The notes beneath the pieces were generated by a model that was given only the letters and a program-made list of their open reading frames with translations, was not told where the DNA came from and ran no database searches. Made by a program: the position numbers and the translations under genes. Source: Sminthopsis crassicaudata (lineage: Eukaryota). Taken from it: a DNA stretch of 64,000 nucleotides. Shown in pieces: positions 13,954-63,329 of the stretch; the first letter of the stretch is position 1, and each line of letters begins with the position of its first letter. The DNA is taken from contig NC_133622.1 in assembly GCF_048593235.1 (NCBI RefSeq), positions 54,312,001 through 54,376,000 on the forward strand, in the 5' to 3' direction.

Positions 13954-14123
13954 CAGTGCTTTTCAAAGTGTGGTCTGGGTAACAGGGAGCTACAGATTCA
14001 AAATTAGTTTTTTATTTCTAATATAGTAAATATCTAGAAAAATAATCCACATAATTTGGACAGATCTCCAATGATTTTTAAGAGTATAAAGGAATATTGA
14101 AAACAAAAGTTTGAGGACCACTG
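13954..14123. mobile_element. hAT-Charlie (MER5-like) MITE
   Basis: TIRs cagtgcttttcaaa / tttgaggaccactg; perfect 8-bp TSD GGCTAGAG at 13946-53 and 14124-31. Confidence 0.85.
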
Positions 14124-14371
14124 GGCTAGAGAGTCCCTTCAAAATATAGCTCGTGGGGCTTCTGCCATGGGAAACCTTTTCTCATTCCTGAGGTTATTCA
14201 AACTCTCTCCTTATTTAATGTTTCATAAGAGGCATTGTGGTATATTGGAGAGTGAGCTGGACTAGGACACTATTTCTGTGACGCTGGCCACATCTTACTT
14301 TCTCTCTGAGTTTCCTCATCTCTGAAGTGAGGGAGTCATACTCAATGATCTTTGACTATCCATCTATTATC

Positions 14372-14507
14372 TTTTTTCCCCCTGAGGCAATTGGGGTTAA
14401 GTGACTTGCCCAGGGTCACACAGTTAGGAAGTTTGAGATCAGATTTGAACTCAGATCCTTCTGATTTCAGGGCTGATCCGCTATCCACTGCACCATCCAG
14501 CTGCCCC
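14372..14507 (-). mobile_element. WSINE1-type SINE
   Basis: tgaggcaattggggttaagtgacttgcccagggtcacacag...gatttgaactcag...ctgcccc; 13-bp TSD TCCATCTATTATC at 14359-71 and 14513-25. Confidence 0.9.
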
Positions 14508-14729
14508 ATATGTCCATCTATTATCATATGTATGCATGTATCTCCACAGTGAAATGTAAGCTCCTGGTGGTCAGAGGTTATTTTTTATTTATTTTGTCCT
14601 TGTATCTCCTATACCTAGCACCTGCTAGGTACATAGTAGCTGCCTAATAGATGTGTAGTTATTTTGTATGACACATAATAATTGACTGATTGTCAAATTA
14701 GATCAGACTGATGTATGGGGCTTTGCCCC

Positions 14730-15800
14730 AGGGCACAAATATGGCGGCATGCTTCCTTCCCATGTCCTATTGCCTTGTGACCGTGACTCCCACCTCTAGG
14801 GCCCCATCACCCTCCGGGACCCTCATCTCTCTCTACTCCTCCCTTCCACCCTCTGGAGACAGGTAACAGTCTTCCTGGGCCATGGACAGCTCCCTCTCCC
14901 AGCATCACTACCCAGGCCCCTGCCCACCCAGCAGCCACCCCCACCCGAAGCTGCCTCAGGTGAGAGCTGGAAGTGTGCGTTACATAAGCGTGCACCTTCC
15001 CCTCAGCTGCTTTCCTTGTAAATCACCTGGTTTGGCCCTAGTCTCCGTGGCCCTGCTGGTGTTTATTACAGCTGGTCTTTCTTTCCCCTCAGTATGTCTC
15101 CGCTTAGCTGGTGTGTATTTGCTCAGCAGGCGATTTCTCTGAAGTGACCTCGGCAGCCCTGGAGATTGATGGCGGCTGGTACTTTCATTATGTCTCAGTG
15201 CTGCCTCGTGAGCTCACTGCATCTGTCAGAGGGAGAACAGAATCCTTCCCAGAATAAGCCTCCAGTCTTCTCTTTGAACATATGTTCTTGATTACACGAG
15301 AAGAGGAAAGTCTCTTCGTTTTTCCCCATTTGGAGGTTAAAGTGGAGGGTTTGTCTAAAAACAGATTGCAGTAAATTGTGGGTTTATTTGAACAGTATGT
15401 CAACATTATTTACTTGGGTGGGGGGGAGAATTCTCAAATTGATAGGTTTCTTTTAATTACCTCATCCTGAAAGCTGCTTTCAACAAACAGCAAATATTTC
15501 AGAAGCCATTTAGATAAGTCTGGAAATGCTGAATTACTGGAAACCCGCCGAGAATAATACCTTTGAAAATGTTTCCCTAGTTCTGAATAGAAGAAACCTT
15601 GGTTCAGAAATAGCTTGTCTTGAACTAAATGGAGTAGTGCCTTCTGTAATCCAACTGGCCTCCTGGCTTCCCTCTCAGCAAGGCCTGGGAGAGCCGAGGG
15701 ATGGGACTGAGGGCTGACTATCACCTCGGAGAAAGGGGACTCGGGGGCCAGGGCTACAGTCACAGCACAACGGTGTCTTTGGGTCTCACTGTAAAATTCA
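14730..15800. promoter_or_regulatory. CpG-retaining GC-rich promoter/enhancer candidate
   Basis: About 20 CpGs in ~1.1 kb; YY1-type AATATGGCGGC (14738-48) and ATGGCGGC (15169-76); several CAGCTG/CACCTG E-boxes; no TE signature. Confidence 0.55.
14882..14959 (+). CDS. Candidate first coding exon MDSSLSQHHYPGPCPPSSHPHPKLPQ (unidentified)
   Basis: Strong Kozak GGGCCATGG, 26 open codons, phase-0 donor CAG|GTGAGA, inside the CpG-rich block; no homolog recognised. Confidence 0.3.
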
Positions 15801-16578
15801 CTGCCTCCTGTCTAGGGGTCTGCCCATAAAATCCAAGAGAAAGGCGCTTCAATAAGCTGGAAAATTGGGGGAAGCCAAAGAATGAATCTATATTATTCGA
15901 GACAAGATATATCTAGTTGATAAATGAACTAAGCCTAACCCCACTTAAATTAAATATATCCTGGAATCATACATTTTAGAACTTTCAGGAAATTTAGGGG
16001 TGATCAAGCACAAACAATTCTTTTTATAATTGAGGAAAGTGAAGTTCAAAGAGATTAATGACTTCCTCAGTTCTCATAACAATTTGCCTGGAACAAGATT
16101 TGAACTCAGTACTTCTTGCCACCAAACTTTCCAGTCAGCTGCCACCTTCTCTTAAATTCTTTCTAAATCTCCTTCAGTCATTCTCACTCTCTCTCCTCAA
16201 AATTACTTTGCATATATTTTGCATTAGTTTTTTCAGTGTTTATTTTGTATCCTATAATAGAATAAAAAATCCTTAAAAATGTGACAATTTCATTGGTTTC
16301 TTTACATCCCCTCCTTAGAACCTAGCCCAGTACTCTGCACACAGTAGGCACTCAAATGGCTCTAAAATGTAATTAACTCACAATTTGATAGCATTGTACA
16401 ATCACAGACATATTATATATTTTATTTCTTTTGATCTTCATCGTGAAGTGGTACCCATTTTAAAGATGAGAAAATGGGACTCAGATAATAAGTAGTAAAA
16501 GCAGAATTCTAACCTAGGTCTTCTAACTTTGATTTTCTTAACTTAATCTAAGTAAAAGAGATTATCTTTCAAGTAGAA

Positions 16579-39609: not shown

Positions 39610-40375
39610 TTTATATTAATACTTTTCTTTTTGTTAAATAAAGCTTTTACAAATAGTTTTCAACATTCACCCTTGCAAAATCTTGTATGACAATTTTTTT
39701 CTCCCGATCTTCCCCCCAGTCCTACTCTAGACAGCAAGTAATCCAATATATGTTAAATTCTTCTATAAATATTTCCACAATTACATTCTGCACAAGAAAA
39801 AAACAGATCAAAAAGGGAAAAAATGAGAAAGAAAACAAAATGCAAATAAACAACAAGAAAAAAGTGAAAATACTGTGTTATGATTTACACTCACTTCTCA
39901 CAGACCTCTCTCTGGATGCAGATGGCTCTTCGCTGTTGAAAAGAGCCACATCTATCAGAATTGATCATCATATAATCTTGTAGTTGCTATGTACATTGTT
40001 CTCCTGATTTTCCTCACTTTATTTAGCATTGTTCATTTAACTCCAGGCTTTTCTGAAACCTGCCTGCTGATCGTTTTCTGTAGATCAGTAATATTCTATA
40101 ACATTTATATGCCATAACTTATTCAGCTATTCCCGAATTGATGAGCATCCACTCAGTTTCCAGTTCTTTGACACTATAAAAAGGGCTGCTACAACATTTT
40201 TGCATATGCAAGTCCTTTCCCCTTTTTTATGATCTCTCTGGCATAGAGACTCAGTAAAGACACTGCTGAATCAAAGGGTATGCACAGTTTGATAGCCTTT
40301 TGGGCATAATCACATATTGTTCTCCAGAATGGTTGGATCATTTCATAACTCCACCAACAATGCATTAGCATCCTA
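39610..40375 (-). mobile_element. L1 3' end (ORF2 C-terminus and 3' UTR)
   Basis: Minus ORF 40189-40371 LMHCWWSYEMIQPFW..CIPFD matches the L1 ORF2 Cys-rich end. Confidence 0.9.
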
Positions 40376-41215
40376 GTGGATTTTAATTCTTCTTAAAAAG
40401 TTGAGATATAGAAAAGTTTTATTGCATAAATTATAACTTTTCTTCCTGAAGAAAATATAGATTCATCAGAATTACCCAGTGCCAAAAACTTATGGAAAAT
40501 AAATATGTGCCAATAGCTGAATAGTGAACCCTCTAATGAAGCCATTAAGCACTTTAATATAATCTTTGATATATACATTTGAGAAGATAATAGCAAAAAA
40601 TGAGGCTTTTATTCCCTTTGTGTGTAGAAAATAAAGAATTTTAAAATTCAGTTATAAATTAAGATGGTGTTTACTTCCTTTTTTAATGGGCAGGAATAAG
40701 TTTTTAAAATTCTCTTCAGATATCCAGGATGTCTTTTAAATTTTCTATTTCTGCTTCATTACAGTCACAATTATCTAATACAGACATAATTTGCATTACC
40801 TATGTGTGGAACTACACATAGCCTAGATTATTTTCTTTCAAAACTTTATTTCTGCTTTGGTTTGGGAATGTTTAATAAGGTCCTAAAGCTTGATTACATT
40901 AAGATGAGGTTTCCAAAAAAAATTCAAAGTGGAGAAGAGAAAGTTAAAAACGTTTGACTAAGTAATGCCTACATATTTAATATTATATGTGTGAAATGAT
41001 GAAGTTTAAACACAAAATTGCAATTTCTGACTTGCCTTTTGCTAGGTATGAAGGTGAATCCCTTACTTACTTGATATAAATCATTGGGCTTTATTAATTG
41101 CTTGTGCAATGTTAGGTTTCATGATACAAATTCAAAAATTCGGCAACAATTTTCTCAAAGAGTTAACATTATGTTTGTGGGGAAATAATATATTCATAAA
41201 ATGTAACTATATAAA

Positions 41216-44033: not shown

Positions 44034-44676
44034 AAGAAAAGGACTCCAACCCTTGAAGGAGCCAAGAATCCTGGGAGGCAGAGATGAGCAAGAAGTGTTA
44101 TTACTTACTTAGGGGACTGTGACAGCCTTCACAAAGGCACAGAGGGAAATCACGGGAATGTTGTGTATGCATATAATACCAAATAAGCAGCTCTGACCAG
44201 AGGTTCATTGTTATGAGACAGAGTAATGTGAACTCAGTTAAGAAAAACAGTAGAGCATTATAGAGAGGTTTTGGCTCAAACATCAATTAATGTAGATAAT
44301 CACGGATGTCTTTCTCTAATTGTGAGTGAATAGTGAATAGTGTAATAGAAATATTCCTGCAAAAATTATGTGGTTCTGGATTTCCTTTAATTGGCCATCA
44401 GTTAAACTAAGTGAATACCCTTTTTTTTATAATAATGGGATATGCCTGGAAGTTACTCTAATTTCTGTCAAGGTCAATGTCTAGTTGCTATTTCATTACA
44501 ACTTTCTTTATGTCCTTTGTTCTTGCTTTGTGCCTTAATGGCAGGTCCAAAATCTTTGTGGGTCATATGGGAAATAAATTTGGATCATGTGTCAAAATAT
44601 AGAAACAGAAACCTAAGTCAATTGAAGCAATGTCAAAAAGTGCATGTCCATTTTATTTTCATAGAGAAAGCCATAC

Positions 44677-44911
44677 TGTGGTCCAGAGCTAGAAAAAACA
44701 GCTGACTGAGGGTGGAGTAAGAAAGAAAGAACCAAGGCATGATGTTGTCCTGTTTTTATTGAGAGGTAGATCTGGAATTACTGCACTGCCACAGGTGGAC
44801 ATGACACAGCCCCAATAGAGCCCTCTCCCTAACTATTCCTCTCGTTCAACTCCACTTACTCAGAACTGATTAACTATGTATACAAGAACAATCCTTAATG
44901 TCCCTACCACA
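44677..44911 (-). mobile_element. Probable short solo LTR
   Basis: Termini TGTGGT...ACCACA (inverted); minus-strand AATAAA about 80 bp from the 3' end; no TSD found. Confidence 0.4.
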
Positions 44912-45561
44912 AGAAGAGCTCTCTAACTATTGGGTGTGTCCATTCCCAAAATTAAATTATGGGAGATGTTTTGTTTTTAAGTAATCATATCATACCTATG
45001 TAGGACTGCCCTATACTAATATCACAATCGCCTGATCTTCCAGTAAAAACCAGAGAATGAATCATTAGTTCCTGGTTAAAGAGACCTTAGGCAGCCTCTG
45101 GGAATAGAGTAAAAATTGAATTTGTAGATTCTAGAAATCATAGCTTTAGTGTTTAAAGGAACTTTAGGGATCATCAAGTCTACTTTCCTCAGTTTATTTC
45201 ATATTTCAATTTGGTTTTTTTCTAATTTTAACAACCATCAGAAAAGGAGGGTTCCCTTGGAACATAAAAAGAAGATTGTACCTGAAACAATTATTCTCTA
45301 TTTATATAGAGTAGTTTGAATTTTCTAAAACATGCATATCAAATTCCATAAATTATTTTCAAAGCTTCCCTTTTTGTTTTTTGTTTTTTAACATTTTATT
45401 TATATGTTTTGTTTTTATATTATATACATTTCAGGAGAGATCTTTTCTAATGAAATAAAACAATCTTAGTAAAAGTAATAGGGATTTCATCTGAAAATAC
45501 ATGTAGCATTTCATATCTGTTGTACTCCTTCCACCTCTCTCTTTTAAAAAGCTAACAAAAA

Positions 45562-45705
45562 GGACAGTTAAGTGGTACAGTGTATAGAAGATTTACCCTG
45601 GAGCAAGGAAAATCTGAGTTCAGATTTAGCTTCAGAAACTTGGCATGTGCTATCTATGAGACCCTGAACAACTCGCTTAATCCTAATTGCCTCACCAAAA
45701 AAATA
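45562..45705 (+). mobile_element. WSINE1-type SINE
   Basis: ggacagttaagtggtacagtgtataga...ctgagttcagat...cttaatcctaattgcctcaccaaaaaaa. Confidence 0.8.
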
Positions 45706-45719
45706 AAATAAAAAAATTA

Positions 45720-47005
45720 ACAGAAGTCTATTTTTTCCTTGCTCTCTATCCCCACCCAATTGGGGGAAAAAAGAAAAAAGTTTCTTTTAACAGATATGCA
45801 ATAAAGCAAAACATTCCCCCAATAACTATCTACAAAAATACGTACATCTCCCACTGCACCTTAAATCTCTCACATCCTTTCTGAACTTCATTCTGCCTTC
45901 TTCTGTACAGTGTTTTTTTAAAGTCTTAAAGAACCTTATTTTAAATTCTCTTCTTTCTTTTCTTTTTTTGGCTAATTTCTTCTCTAAATCCTAACTCCCT
46001 TATTTAAAATGAAGGAAAAAACAAACTTGTAATAAATAAGCAAAGGCCAAAAAAAAAAAAAAAAAAAAAGAATCCACATGATAATCATATCTGAAAATGC
46101 ATATGTCTTAGTACATCTTTTGACAATCCCCTCTCAGGAGTATGTAACATCCTTCATCAATGGTCTTTTGAAGTCATGGTTAGTCATTGCTATGATCAAA
46201 GTTCTTAAATCATTTATAGCTGTCTTTCTTTATATTTCTATTCTTATATAAATTATTCTCCTGGTTGCACTCACTTTACAATGCATCAATTCATACAGTC
46301 TTTCCAGGATTCTTTGAAAACATCTTTCATAATATCTCAAGACCCAATAATATTCCATTTTCATCATAATGTATTCATCTATTCTCCAATTGAGAAGCAC
46401 CATCTTCTTTTTTTCTTTTAAACACTCTACTTAGCATCTTTCCTCTAAAAATAAAGTTCATTTTTTCTTGTAACTATTCCTTTCCTCTTTTTTCCTTTAT
46501 CTTAACTCTTCTTTTCCCTATCTCTGACTTCCTGTTAAATTTAATGTATTTCTACACCAAACCCCATGTGTNNNNNNNNNNNNNNNNNNNNNNNNNNNNN
46601 NNNNNNNNNNNNNNNNNNNNNNNNNNNNNNNNNNNNNNNNNNNNNNNNNNNNNNNNNNNNNNNNNNNNNNNNNNNNNNNNNNNNNNNNNNNNNNNNNNNN
46701 NNNNNNNNNNNNNNNNNNNNNNNNNNNNNNNNNNNNNNNNNNNNNNNNNNNNNNNNNNNNNNNNNNNNNNNNNNNNNNNNNNNNNNNNNNNNNNNNNNNN
46801 NNNNNNNNNNNNNNNNNNNNNNNNNNNNNNNNNNNNNNNNNNNNNNNNNNNNNNNNNNNNNNNNNNNNNNNNNNNNNNNNNNNNNNNNNNNNNNNNNNNN
46901 NNNNNNNNNNNNNNNNNNNNNNNNNNNNNNNNNNNNNNNNNNNNNNNTGCATGTTTATGTGAATGTGTTTCACCTTCCTTTGTCAGATTTGTGTACATGA
47001 GGTTT
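45720..47005 (-). mobile_element. Old L1 fragments (3' end, then inter-ORF spacer), spanning the gap
   Basis: aatccacatgataatcatatctgaaaat...caataatattccatt; spacer-like aatgtatttctacacc..(tg)n..ttcctttgtcagatttg. Confidence 0.55.
46572..46947. other. Assembly gap (376 N)
   Basis: N run. Confidence 1.
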
Positions 47006-47018
47006 ATCTATCCTTATC

Positions 47019-47485
47019 TGACCCGGCCTGCGGGTCTCGAACTAGGGACGGCTGAAGTCACACATCAGTCTGTAAGCCAGAGGCTGGGGGAGGCGTTTGC
47101 CTGGGGATGGGCTGAAAAGAAAGAAACGGAGGCAACTCTGGCAGAAGGTAGAATAGCTACTTTATTGAAGGAGGGTTTGCCCCACACCCCACATTCCAAG
47201 AATTAATAAAAGACCTTGGTTTGTCGAGTTCTAAGAAATATGCTCAACAAAGCATGAGAACATCCTGCCTCCGAACATCACAAGGACACACATATCTACC
47301 ACCAGATGTCCCATAATCGACAAATGTTACCTTTGTTATACGACCCCTAATCATGGAATGTTTTTTCAAAAAACTGCCTACGTGACCAAGCCCCTATATA
47401 AACCCAAACCCTCCTTCAATAAAGTAGCTATTCTACCTTCTGCCAGAGAATAAGAAAATAAGAAAATAAGAAAAAAAAAAAAAAA
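47019..47485 (+). mobile_element. Young LTR-derived insert: inverted U5-R-like segment + U3-R + poly(A)-type tail
   Basis: TATATAA 47395-401, AATAAA 47418-23, tail (AATAAGAA)3 plus A run at 47449-85; perfect 44-bp inverted repeat 47136-179 / 47405-448; 11 CpGs in ~390 bp. Confidence 0.75.
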
Positions 47486-47496
47486 CTTGCGTTTTC

Positions 47497-48362
47497 CGGG
47501 ATGTGGGAAAACTGGGACACTGATACATTGTTCGTGGAGTTGTGAACTAATCCAACCATTCTGGACAGCAATTTGGAGTTATGCCCAAAAGGCCATCAAA
47601 CTGTGCATACTCTTTGATCCAGCAGTGTCTCTACTGGAATTATATCCCAAAGAGATCGTAAAGGAGGGAAAGGGACCTGTATGTACAAAAATGTTTGTGG
47701 CAGCCCTCTTTGTAGTTGCCAGAAACTGGAACCTGAGTGAATGCCCATTAACTGGAGAATGGCTAAATAATTTATGGTCTATGAATGCTATGGAATATTA
47801 TTATTCTATAAGAAATGACCAACAAAATGATTCAGAAAGGCCTGGAAAGACTTACATGAACTGATGCTGAGTGAAATGAGCAGGACAAGGAGATCATTAT
47901 ATACTTCAATTACAATACTATATGATGATCAATTCTGAAGGACATGGCCCTCTCCAACAATGAGATGAACCAAATCAGTTCCAATAGAGCAGGAATGAAC
48001 TGAACCAGCTACACCCAGTGAAAGAACTCTGGGAGATGACTGATCCACTACATAGAATTGCCAATCCCTCCAATTTTGTCCGCCTGCATTTTTTATTTCC
48101 TTCACAGGCTAAATGTACATTATTTCAAAGTCCGATTCTTTTTGTTCAGCAAAACAACTGTTTGGACATGTATACATATATTGTATTTAATTTATACTCT
48201 AACATATTTAACATGTATTGGTCAACCTGCCAACCGAGAGAGGCGGGGGAAGGAGGGGAAAAATTGGAACAAATGGTTTGGCAATTGTCAGTGTTGTAAA
48301 ATTACCCATGCATATATCTGGTAAATAAAAACTATTTAAAAAGAAGAAGAAGAAGAAGAAGA
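47497..48362 (+). mobile_element. Relatively young L1 3' end
   Basis: GCGKTGTLIHCSWSCELIQPFW..CILFDPAVSLL (ORF2 C-terminus), 3' UTR, AATAAA at 48324, A/(GAA)n tail. Confidence 0.95.
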
Positions 48363-48760
48363 CAGTTGACTTGGTTCTTTTCTACAATGAAGTGATTCAA
48401 GGTAATTCCAATACCCTATAATGGAAAGAGAGAGAGGAAATGGAGAGAGAATTATAGAGACTGAATATGGATCAAAATATAATAGTCTCACCTTATTTAT
48501 TGTTGTTCTTTGCTTGGTTTTTTTGTGTGTGTTTTTCTTTTTGATCTGATTTTTTTTGTGTGTGCAGCATGATAATTGTGGAAATATGTTTGGAAGAATT
48601 GCACATTTAACCTATATTGAACTGCTTCTGGTTTAGGGGAGGGAGATAGGGGGAGGAAGGCGAGAATAATTTGGAGCACAAGGTTTTGCAAAGGTGAATG
48701 TTGAAAACTATCTTTGCATATTTGGAAAAATAAAATGCTATTTAAAAAATAAATATTGCA
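48363..48760 (+). mobile_element. Second, older L1 3' UTR fragment
   Basis: gacttggttcttttctacaatgaagtgattcaagg...tgaatgttgaaaactatctttgcatatttggaaaaataaaat. Confidence 0.8.
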
Positions 48761-48769
48761 TTTTTATTT

Positions 48770-62461: not shown

Positions 62462-62503
62462 CACAAAGTAGACAAGGAAGTACACAAAGTAGACAAGGAA
62501 GTA
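62462..62503. repeat. Perfect 21-bp tandem duplication
   Basis: cacaaagtagacaaggaagta x2. Confidence 0.95.
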
Positions 62504-63329
62504 CATTTTAGCAGGCATAATTTTTTTCAATTACTATTTAACAATCCTTTTTTAAAATTTCTTTAAAAAATAAACAATGGACATCAGCAAAGAAAGGCAG
62601 CCTAATATAATGGATAGAGTCAAGTATTAGTTAAATATTTATTGATTGAGCAAAATGAATAAAAATCTACTATGTGCCTAGCACTATGCTAGTCTCTAGA
62701 TCCATAGAGGAACAGTCCCTGCCCTCAAGGATAGAATATAAACTCTTTGAAGGGGACTATACCTAACACATAGTAGACATTTAATAAATGCTTATGGATT
62801 GATTTCATTTTCTGAAAGAGTTTACGTTCTATAGGGAGAATACAATACATAGTTATAATTTATACCATATATATGGGTTCAGATCCCTTTCCTGACACTA
62901 GCTGTTTGATATGGTCATTTTGTCTCATTAGTCTCCATATTTTCATGTGTAAAGTAAAAATAATAATAGAATAAACTTTAAAGTACTTTGAGACTCAAAT
63001 AATTTCATATTAGTTTCTTTCCATAGAATATTAAGGGCATCTGTTTTGCATATCATATAAATGTGAGCTATTATAATTTTAGAGGATGGGAATGAATTTG
63101 ATACAATAAAAAATGTAATATTTTGGTAGATACTATCATCTGGACTTTAGGCTTTATTCTCAAATAAGAATATTTTCTTCTTTGTAACTTACTTGGCTTG
63201 AAAGACTATTTGAATTGATAGAACTTTAGAGATCAACTAGTTTCTAAACTTATAAGTGAACAAAATTTAAATCCAGAGATTAAATGGGTTTGCTCATTTA
63301 ATAATAATGGTTACTGTAGTAGCTAAGTA

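What the first reader, a model, noticed from the sequence alone, without database searches (positions are those of the whole stretch)
47019..47485. Young LTR-derived retrocopy with a perfect 44-bp inverted repeat and a poly(A)-type tail
Seen: 47136-47179 (ctctggcagaaggtagaatagctactttattgaaggagggtttg) is the exact reverse complement of 47405-47448, across a 225-bp spacer. The + copy follows TATATAA, contains AATAAA, and runs straight into (AATAAGAA)3 plus an A run. The - copy instead continues into a CpG-rich U5-like sequence ending ...gccgggtCA at 47019. The two copies diverge exactly at the tail, as expected at an R/U5 boundary. Known: proviruses end in TG..CA with short TSDs and no poly(A); L1 twin priming gives a 5'-inverted segment joined to a sense 3' segment with poly(A); short TATA-to-AATAAA spacing is typical of beta-like LTRs. 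Inference: an ERV transcript (R-U5...U3-R-polyA) was mobilised by L1 machinery with a 5' inversion that captured both RNA ends. Caveats: no TSD found, the inverted copy extends ~20 nt upstream of the expected start site, and a gap lies 70 bp to the left.
Basis: partly seen in the sequence, partly recalled or inferred. Interest (0 to 1): 0.8.

Follow-up and report, generated by a model that had tools for sequence, protein, structure and literature searches.

The report
Inside-out retroviral LTR with A-tail
One end-repeat of a young endogenous retrovirus has been partly flipped in place and given an A-rich tail; it is a real but one-off scar, more likely a local rearrangement than a copy of the whole viral RNA.

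Summary
The 44-bp inverted repeat, TATA, AATAAA and A-rich tail are real. Both pieces come from one young, low-copy 401-bp LTR family with TG..CA ends, mostly 6-bp TSDs and a Lys-type PBS. The sense piece is LTR nt 13-284 plus tail. The inverted piece is nt 241-401 and stops exactly at the terminal CA. A 3-nt microhomology joins them. Together they make one LTR minus 12 nt, with 44 nt twice and no internal viral sequence. That fits a full-length mRNA retrocopy poorly: it needs a 5.6-kb deletion ending at both LTR edges, 16-19 nt upstream of the inferred cap site, and no TSD was found. Best reading (0.4): an integrated LTR locally inverted by a template switch, with the tail from an L1-type poly(A) event or host tract. 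Rivals use the virus's own polyadenylated RNA. It is a singleton; the second genomic copy is probably an assembly duplicate. The empty site would decide.

The parts
47019..47135 (-). U5 of the LTR (LTR nt 285-401), ending exactly at the terminal CA; joined to unique host DNA
   Evidence: flank 46948-47018 hits only this locus and its duplicate
47136..47179 (-). Left arm of the inverted repeat: LTR nt 241-284 (end of U3 plus inferred R)
47177..47179 (.). 3-nt microhomology at the inversion joint (LTR nt 241-243 reversed = LTR nt 13-15)
47180..47404 (+). U3 (LTR nt 16-240), the 'spacer'; the first 12 nt of the LTR are missing
47395..47402 (+). TATA box (LTR nt 231); cap site inferred near 47424 (LTR nt 260)
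   Evidence: cap site is inference from TATA spacing, not measured
47405..47448 (+). Right arm of the inverted repeat (LTR nt 241-284) with AATAAA at 47418-47423
47449..47485 (+). Patterned A-rich tail, (AATAAGAA)3 plus 13 A; origin (viral poly(A), other RNA, or host tract) unresolved
47486..47497 (.). 12 nt of unassigned sequence between the tail and the old L1
47498..48345 (+). Old 5'-truncated L1 3' fragment; older than the LTR and not part of the event
   Evidence: best other copies 87-90% over 414 nt, 82-89% over longer alignments
44034..54327 (.). Block between two 25-N runs that duplicates G000:C6:53907776-53918070; probably an assembly duplicate

Best explanation
An LTR of this family (most simply a solo LTR) was integrated here by integrase, on the minus strand; the joint at 47018/47019 is its U5 end. 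Later a break or L1-type nick near its other end was repaired by a local template switch. Synthesis left the LTR at nt 241, re-primed on the opposite strand at nt 13-15 through a 3-nt match, copied U3 back past the leaving point to nt 284, and was joined to an A-rich tail and the right flank. The first 12 nt of the LTR, the right TSD and some flank were lost. This gives an inverted repeat around an inverted spacer. The tail is a poly(A)-only L1-type insertion or a host A-tract, and sits at the viral poly(A) site by chance. Shown: the anatomy. Inferred: the resident LTR, the order of steps and the source of the tail. The product is most likely inert.
For: The element is LTR-only: nt 13-401 with 241-284 twice. 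It ends exactly at the terminal CA, as natural copies do. The inverted piece runs into U3 upstream of the inferred cap site, which LTR DNA gives for free. 8 of 14 loci compared are solo LTRs. One template in cis explains why both pieces belong to the same rare family (19 exact motif matches in 3.2 Gb). The topology matches the '3-1-2-4' template switch, an inverted repeat around an inverted spacer, 23% of events in PMC5453318 (passages). L1 insertions with local inversion or inverted duplication of flanking DNA are described in 10.1101/2024.12.14.628481 (section 9), and templated insertions and solitary poly(A) tracts in 10.1101/2024.08.27.596794 (passages). No other tailed copy: 0 of the 15 ordinary matches of this family and 0 of 59 in a sister family.
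Against: The tail starts 22-25 nt after AATAAA; a DNA switch would end in the 10-30 nt window about 13% of the time (21 of 160 positions). Runs of 13 or more A occur only 23 times in 178 kb, and the tail unit never occurs twice in tandem in 147 kb of control DNA. No remnant of the missing 12 nt (best match 3 mismatches) or of the left hexamer (0 in 1000 nt) lies to the right, so an extra deletion is needed. The template-switch examples I read are much shorter than 272 nt. No ancestral allele or empty site was seen.
Confidence: 0.4

Rival explanations
1. L1 twin priming on an RNA that read through one LTR, crossed an LTR-LTR junction (2-LTR circle or tandem LTRs) and was polyadenylated in the next LTR: U3-R-U5-U3-R-poly(A).
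For: On such a template the gap at the inversion joint is only 12-15 nt, against a median of 14.5 bp in twin priming; the sense arm is longer than the inverted arm (272 vs 161; reported ratio 2.6). Tail at the expected site and 3-nt microhomology. A transcript across the 2-LTR junction is reported for HIV (PMC3148978, passage).
Against: No U5-U3 junction in the assembly (exact pattern, gap up to 12 nt; the 59 sister-family matches are at least 1.4 kb apart). The exact CA end would be a coincidence. No TSD. Needs read-through as well as a rare template.
Confidence: 0.2
2. Hand-off between machineries: the U5 end was made by retroviral RT or integrase (resident 3' LTR, one-ended integration, or minus-strand DNA just after its first jump), and the sense arm is cDNA primed by the right flank on the poly(A) of the virus's own mRNA, joined by the 3-nt match.
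For: Explains the exact CA end, the run into U3 and the tail position together, and expects no TSD. The 3 nt left of the joint match 2 of the 3 nt that precede the PBS (weak).
Against: Needs RNA of the same rare family at the same break. The cDNA stopping 12 nt from the LTR start is unexplained. No precedent turned up (0 papers; 1 review, listing only; 0). No donor provirus matches both arms.
Confidence: 0.2
3. One reading: L1 twin priming on the full-length R-U5...U3-R-poly(A) mRNA, capturing both ends.
For: Inverted 5' piece, sense 3' piece, tail and microhomology are all present. L1-processed ERV copies exist for HERV-W (PMC5016936, passages).
Against: Needs a 5.6-kb deletion whose ends fall 0 and 12 nt from the LTR edges; 16-19 nt of U3 lie upstream of the inferred cap site; no TSD; no internal sequence.
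Confidence: 0.1
4. Assembly artefact (chimeric or fold-back read).
For: The window's copy sits in a 10.3-kb block between two 25-N runs. No listed contig bridged the inversion joint or the tail joint (a cut listing).
Against: The same structure is at G000:C6:53.91 Mb in N-free sequence. Contigs of 2 of 2 same-species runs laid cross the left joint without differences, though with only 26-27 letters in the LTR, under the tool's 31-letter bar, and one may be the assembly's source. The element differs from all 20 natural LTRs compared.
Confidence: 0.05

Closest known systems
'3-1-2-4' template-switch events (PMC5453318)
   Same: Perfect inverted repeat around an inverted spacer, copied from local DNA.
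   Different: Here the fragment is 272 nt, ends in an A-rich tail and comes with a deletion; no ancestral allele was seen.
L1 insertions with local inversion or inverted duplication (10.1101/2024.12.14.628481); templated insertions (10.1101/2024.08.27.596794)
   Same: Short-homology inversion joint, flipped neighbouring DNA, poly(A) end against the far flank.
   Different: Those are somatic or cell-culture events with L1 sequence; here no young L1 sequence is present and the flipped DNA is an LTR in the germ line.
L1-processed ERV pseudogenes (HERV-W, PMC5016936)
   Same: U3-R end followed by an A tail; R-U5 piece present.
   Different: Those are colinear with the mRNA and have 5-15 bp TSDs; this has no internal sequence, an inverted 5' piece and no TSD, and is a singleton.
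5'-inverted (twin-primed) retrocopies (PMC2912911)
   Same: Inverted plus sense segment, microhomology, tail.
   Different: The junction gap fits only if U5 was followed directly by U3 in the template; no TSD.
Marsupial beta-like ERVs (MEBrv clades, PMC11334065)
   Same: LTR length in the reported 281-469 nt range; a beta-type matrix remnant in one provirus.
   Different: No sequence comparison with those clades was made; the 8 proviral loci checked have no long ORFs.

Membership tests
L1-processed ERV pseudogene (HERV-W type) | 3' end is U3-R followed by poly(A) | tested here: met
   LTR nt 13-284 then tail, 22-25 nt after AATAAA; the true poly(A) site was not measured
L1-processed ERV pseudogene (HERV-W type) | Colinear with the mRNA, 5' end at or after the cap site | tested here: not met
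   No PBS, PPT or internal sequence; inverted piece starts at LTR nt 241-244, cap site inferred at 260
L1-processed ERV pseudogene (HERV-W type) | 5-15 bp TSD | tested here: not met
   Best flank match no better than controls: 4504 of 5000 reach it; only scattered 7-8 nt matches in 4.7 kb upstream
L1-processed ERV pseudogene (HERV-W type) | TT/AAAA target motif | not testable with these tools
   Needs the empty site
Twin-primed 5'-inverted retrocopy | Inverted 5' segment, sense 3' segment, tail, junction microhomology | tested here: met
Twin-primed 5'-inverted retrocopy | Short deletion or duplication between the two segments on the template | tested here: inconclusive
   About 5.6 kb on the full mRNA (not met); 12-15 nt on an LTR-LTR junction RNA (met), but no such junction in the assembly
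Integrase-made solo LTR | TG..CA ends | tested here: inconclusive
   CA end exact; TG end missing with the first 12 nt
Integrase-made solo LTR | 6-bp TSD | tested here: not met
   Left hexamer absent from 1000 nt right of the joint; 12 of 14 natural loci have a perfect 6-bp TSD
3-1-2-4 template switch | Inverted repeat around an inverted spacer | tested here: met
   Relative to a minus-strand LTR, nt 13-240 are flipped between two copies of nt 241-284
3-1-2-4 template switch | Ancestral allele holds the template locally | not testable with these tools
   No relative genome held; no older paralogue found
Beta-like ERV LTR (parent family) | TG..CA, 6-bp TSD, Lys-type PBS, beta-type matrix | tested here: met
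   Gag_p10 E 1.9e-11 in 1 of 2 proviruses scanned, the other gave only sub-cutoff RT and MLV-type integrase hits. The PBS-to-tRNA-Lys assignment is recalled, not from a call

The most novel reading that the evidence does not exclude
The element is a germ-line fossil of cross-talk between an endogenous retrovirus and L1: either a twin-primed copy of an RNA that crossed an LTR-LTR (2-LTR circle) junction, or a half-finished retroviral integration closed by poly(A)-primed reverse transcription of the virus's own RNA.
Probability: 0.3. Interest if true: 0.55.

Novelty: new variant of a known kind. Interest (0 to 1): 0.28.

Why it matters
As a locally flipped LTR it is a single mutational scar with no sign of function or spread, useful only as a germ-line example of a repair pattern described in tumours and cell lines. 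If the tail proves to be the virus's own poly(A) on an LTR-only template, it would be genomic evidence that junction-spanning transcripts or stalled integration intermediates of an ERV can be fixed by L1-type priming. I found no report of that (listings only, open-access library). One PCR or one orthologous sequence would tell these apart.

Tried and rejected
A family of tailed copies: rejected; only this locus and its duplicate match, none in the sister family (exact patterns, so diverged copies can be missed). The second genomic copy as an independent event: rejected; 0 substitutions over about 9.9 kb and ends at the window's 25-N runs. Co-insertion with the downstream L1 as one chimera: rejected; the L1 is far older and flank similarity is at control level (1950 of 5000). 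The 12 nt after the tail as a decayed TSD of the old L1: not significant (2180 of 20000 controls). A donor provirus: none stands out. Older paralogue as an empty site: none. Tandem LTR template in the assembly: none. Reads: 4 of 24 runs laid; L1 reads swamped the tables, so the inversion and tail joints stayed untested. A second species had depth on the left flank (15.4) and none on 47007-47183, but its contig was not listed, so the empty site was not read. Its RNA run had no reads on the LTR. RNA fold (z -7.6) only restates the inverted repeat. The ORF at 47487-47864 has no Pfam hit. No tRNA gene in the window. Host-gene context was not obtained. Earlier findings: none. Dfam and Repbase are not available here. 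Supplements were not read.

Full report
Observation. The inverted repeat is exact, 44 nt, with 225 nt between the arms. TATATAAA starts at 47395, AATAAA at 47418, and the tail runs 47449-47485. The genome has 3.24 Gb in 8 contigs; a marsupial is my inference from that and from the repeats, not a tested result.

Parent family. Searches of the own genome with the sense piece and with the inverted U5 piece gave abutting hits at 95-99% identity. In 20 natural LTRs from 14 loci (6 proviruses, 8 solo LTRs; of the 17 ERV loci fetched, L014, L017 and L018 were not captured or were left out) the LTR is 390-403 nt, or 467 nt in a subfamily, and runs TG..CA. 12 of 14 loci have a perfect 6-bp TSD, one has a mismatch and one has 5 bp. 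5' LTRs are followed by 3 nt and a PBS that I recall as tRNA-Lys type. Paired LTRs differ by 2-10 substitutions (6 pairs). The 8 proviral loci checked have no ORF over 253 aa. One gave a beta-type matrix hit (Gag_p10, E 1.9e-11), another only sub-cutoff RT and MLV-type integrase hits. So this is a young, low-copy, probably non-autonomous element with beta-like LTRs. An exact R-region motif matches 19 times in the genome, 4 of them in this element and its duplicate.

Anatomy. The sense piece is LTR nt 13-284 and the inverted piece nt 241-401. The inverted piece ends exactly at the terminal CA and meets unique host DNA. Three letters at the inversion joint fit both sides; the same triplet occurs at 4 places in LTR nt 1-240. 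No PBS, PPT or internal sequence is present. TATA is at LTR nt 231 and AATAAA at 254, so the cap site should be near nt 260 (inference), and the inverted piece carries 16-19 nt of U3 that a normal transcript lacks. The element differs from natural copies by 3-9 substitutions in the sense piece and 1-5 in the inverted piece, so it is about as old as the proviruses; identical arms are expected about 41% of the time at 1% divergence.

Flanks. After the tail come 12 unassigned nt and an old truncated L1 whose best other copies are 87-90% identical, so it is not part of the event. No TSD was found for the element alone or for element plus L1 (4504 and 1950 of 5000 controls score as well). The left hexamer does not recur in 1000 nt to the right and the missing 12 nt are not found.

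Is it real, and how many? A second copy lies 448 kb away. It has no substitutions over about 9.9 kb, and the shared block ends exactly at the window's two 25-N runs, while the rest of the window has no counterpart there. I read it as an assembly duplicate; a very recent duplication is not excluded. Contigs from 2 of 2 same-species runs laid cross the left joint without differences but with only 26-27 letters in the LTR. The inversion and tail joints were not seen in the cut listing. No other copy of this family or of a sister family with 59 matches has a tail, and no U5-U3 junction was found.

Mechanism. Seven features need explaining: exact CA end, run into U3, sense start 12 nt from the LTR start, tail at the expected poly(A) position, microhomology, no TSD, LTR-only content. 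The full-length twin-priming model explains the tail and the microhomology only. In 10.1101/2024.08.27.596794 (passages) junction deletions have a median of 14.5 bp, against 5.6 kb needed here; HERV-W processed copies are colinear and carry TSDs (PMC5016936, passages). A resident LTR flipped by a template switch explains all but the tail. The shape is the '3-1-2-4' class of PMC5453318 (passages), and L1-induced breaks give local inversions and inverted duplications beside a poly(A) end (10.1101/2024.12.14.628481, passages and section 9). It leaves a roughly 1-in-8 coincidence for the tail position, needs a source for the tail, and needs loss of the right TSD. I give it 0.4. Twin priming on an RNA across an LTR-LTR junction gives a textbook 12-15 nt gap, and such a transcript is mentioned for HIV (PMC3148978, passage), but the exact CA end and the lack of a TSD become coincidences: 0.2. 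A hand-off from retroviral RT or integrase to poly(A)-primed cDNA explains the most features but has no precedent in my searches: 0.2. These weights are judgement; the models that use the virus's own poly(A) sum to 0.5, so the question is open.

Other papers seen: PMC2912911 (first part and passages), PMC2664473 (passages; poly(A) site normally 10-30 nt after AATAAA), PMC11334065 (passages and section 7). Searches were listings. No supplements were read.

Verdict. Real, singular, non-coding, with no sign of function or spread. It works like a local inverted duplication or a twin-primed insertion but fails the membership tests for a processed ERV pseudogene. Interest 0.28; about 0.55 if the empty site shows an RNA-primed origin from an LTR-only template.

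Noticed in passing
window 44034-54327 and G000:C6:53907776-53918070: A 10.3-kb block between two 25-N runs is identical, apart from three 1-nt indels, to sequence 448 kb away; likely an assembly duplicate.
   Followed up: partly
L003-L007, L013 (proviruses of the parent family): LTR pairs are 97.5-99.6% identical while the interiors have no long ORF; one interior has faint gamma-like pol remnants behind beta-like LTRs, suggesting a recombinant non-autonomous element moved in trans.
   Followed up: partly
window 47013-47018 and L004: The hexamer left of the joint equals the 6 nt after the 3' LTR of L004 (same contig, 6.7 Mb away, fewest substitutions to the sense arm) but in the orientation that cannot be copied from it; it is also one letter from the reverse complement of the tail unit. 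Post hoc, probably chance.
   Followed up: partly
G000:C5:247343196-247366757: Six matches of the sister LTR family in 24 kb, spaced like three proviruses in a row.
   Followed up: no
L013, L015, L016 versus L002-L012: Two LTR length classes, 467 and about 401 nt, differ by a U3 segment; a sister family shares U5 but has another U3 and R.
   Followed up: partly
window 40193-40377 and 39934-40029: Another old L1 3' fragment in the opposite orientation, 73-81% complementary to the one at 47511-47959.
   Followed up: no
window 58747-58819 and 62462-62505: Perfect tandem duplications of 36 and 21 nt.
   Followed up: no
window 14001-16000: Raised GC and CpG (25 CpG against 1-15 in the other 2-kb bins); may hold an exon, not examined.
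   Followed up: no
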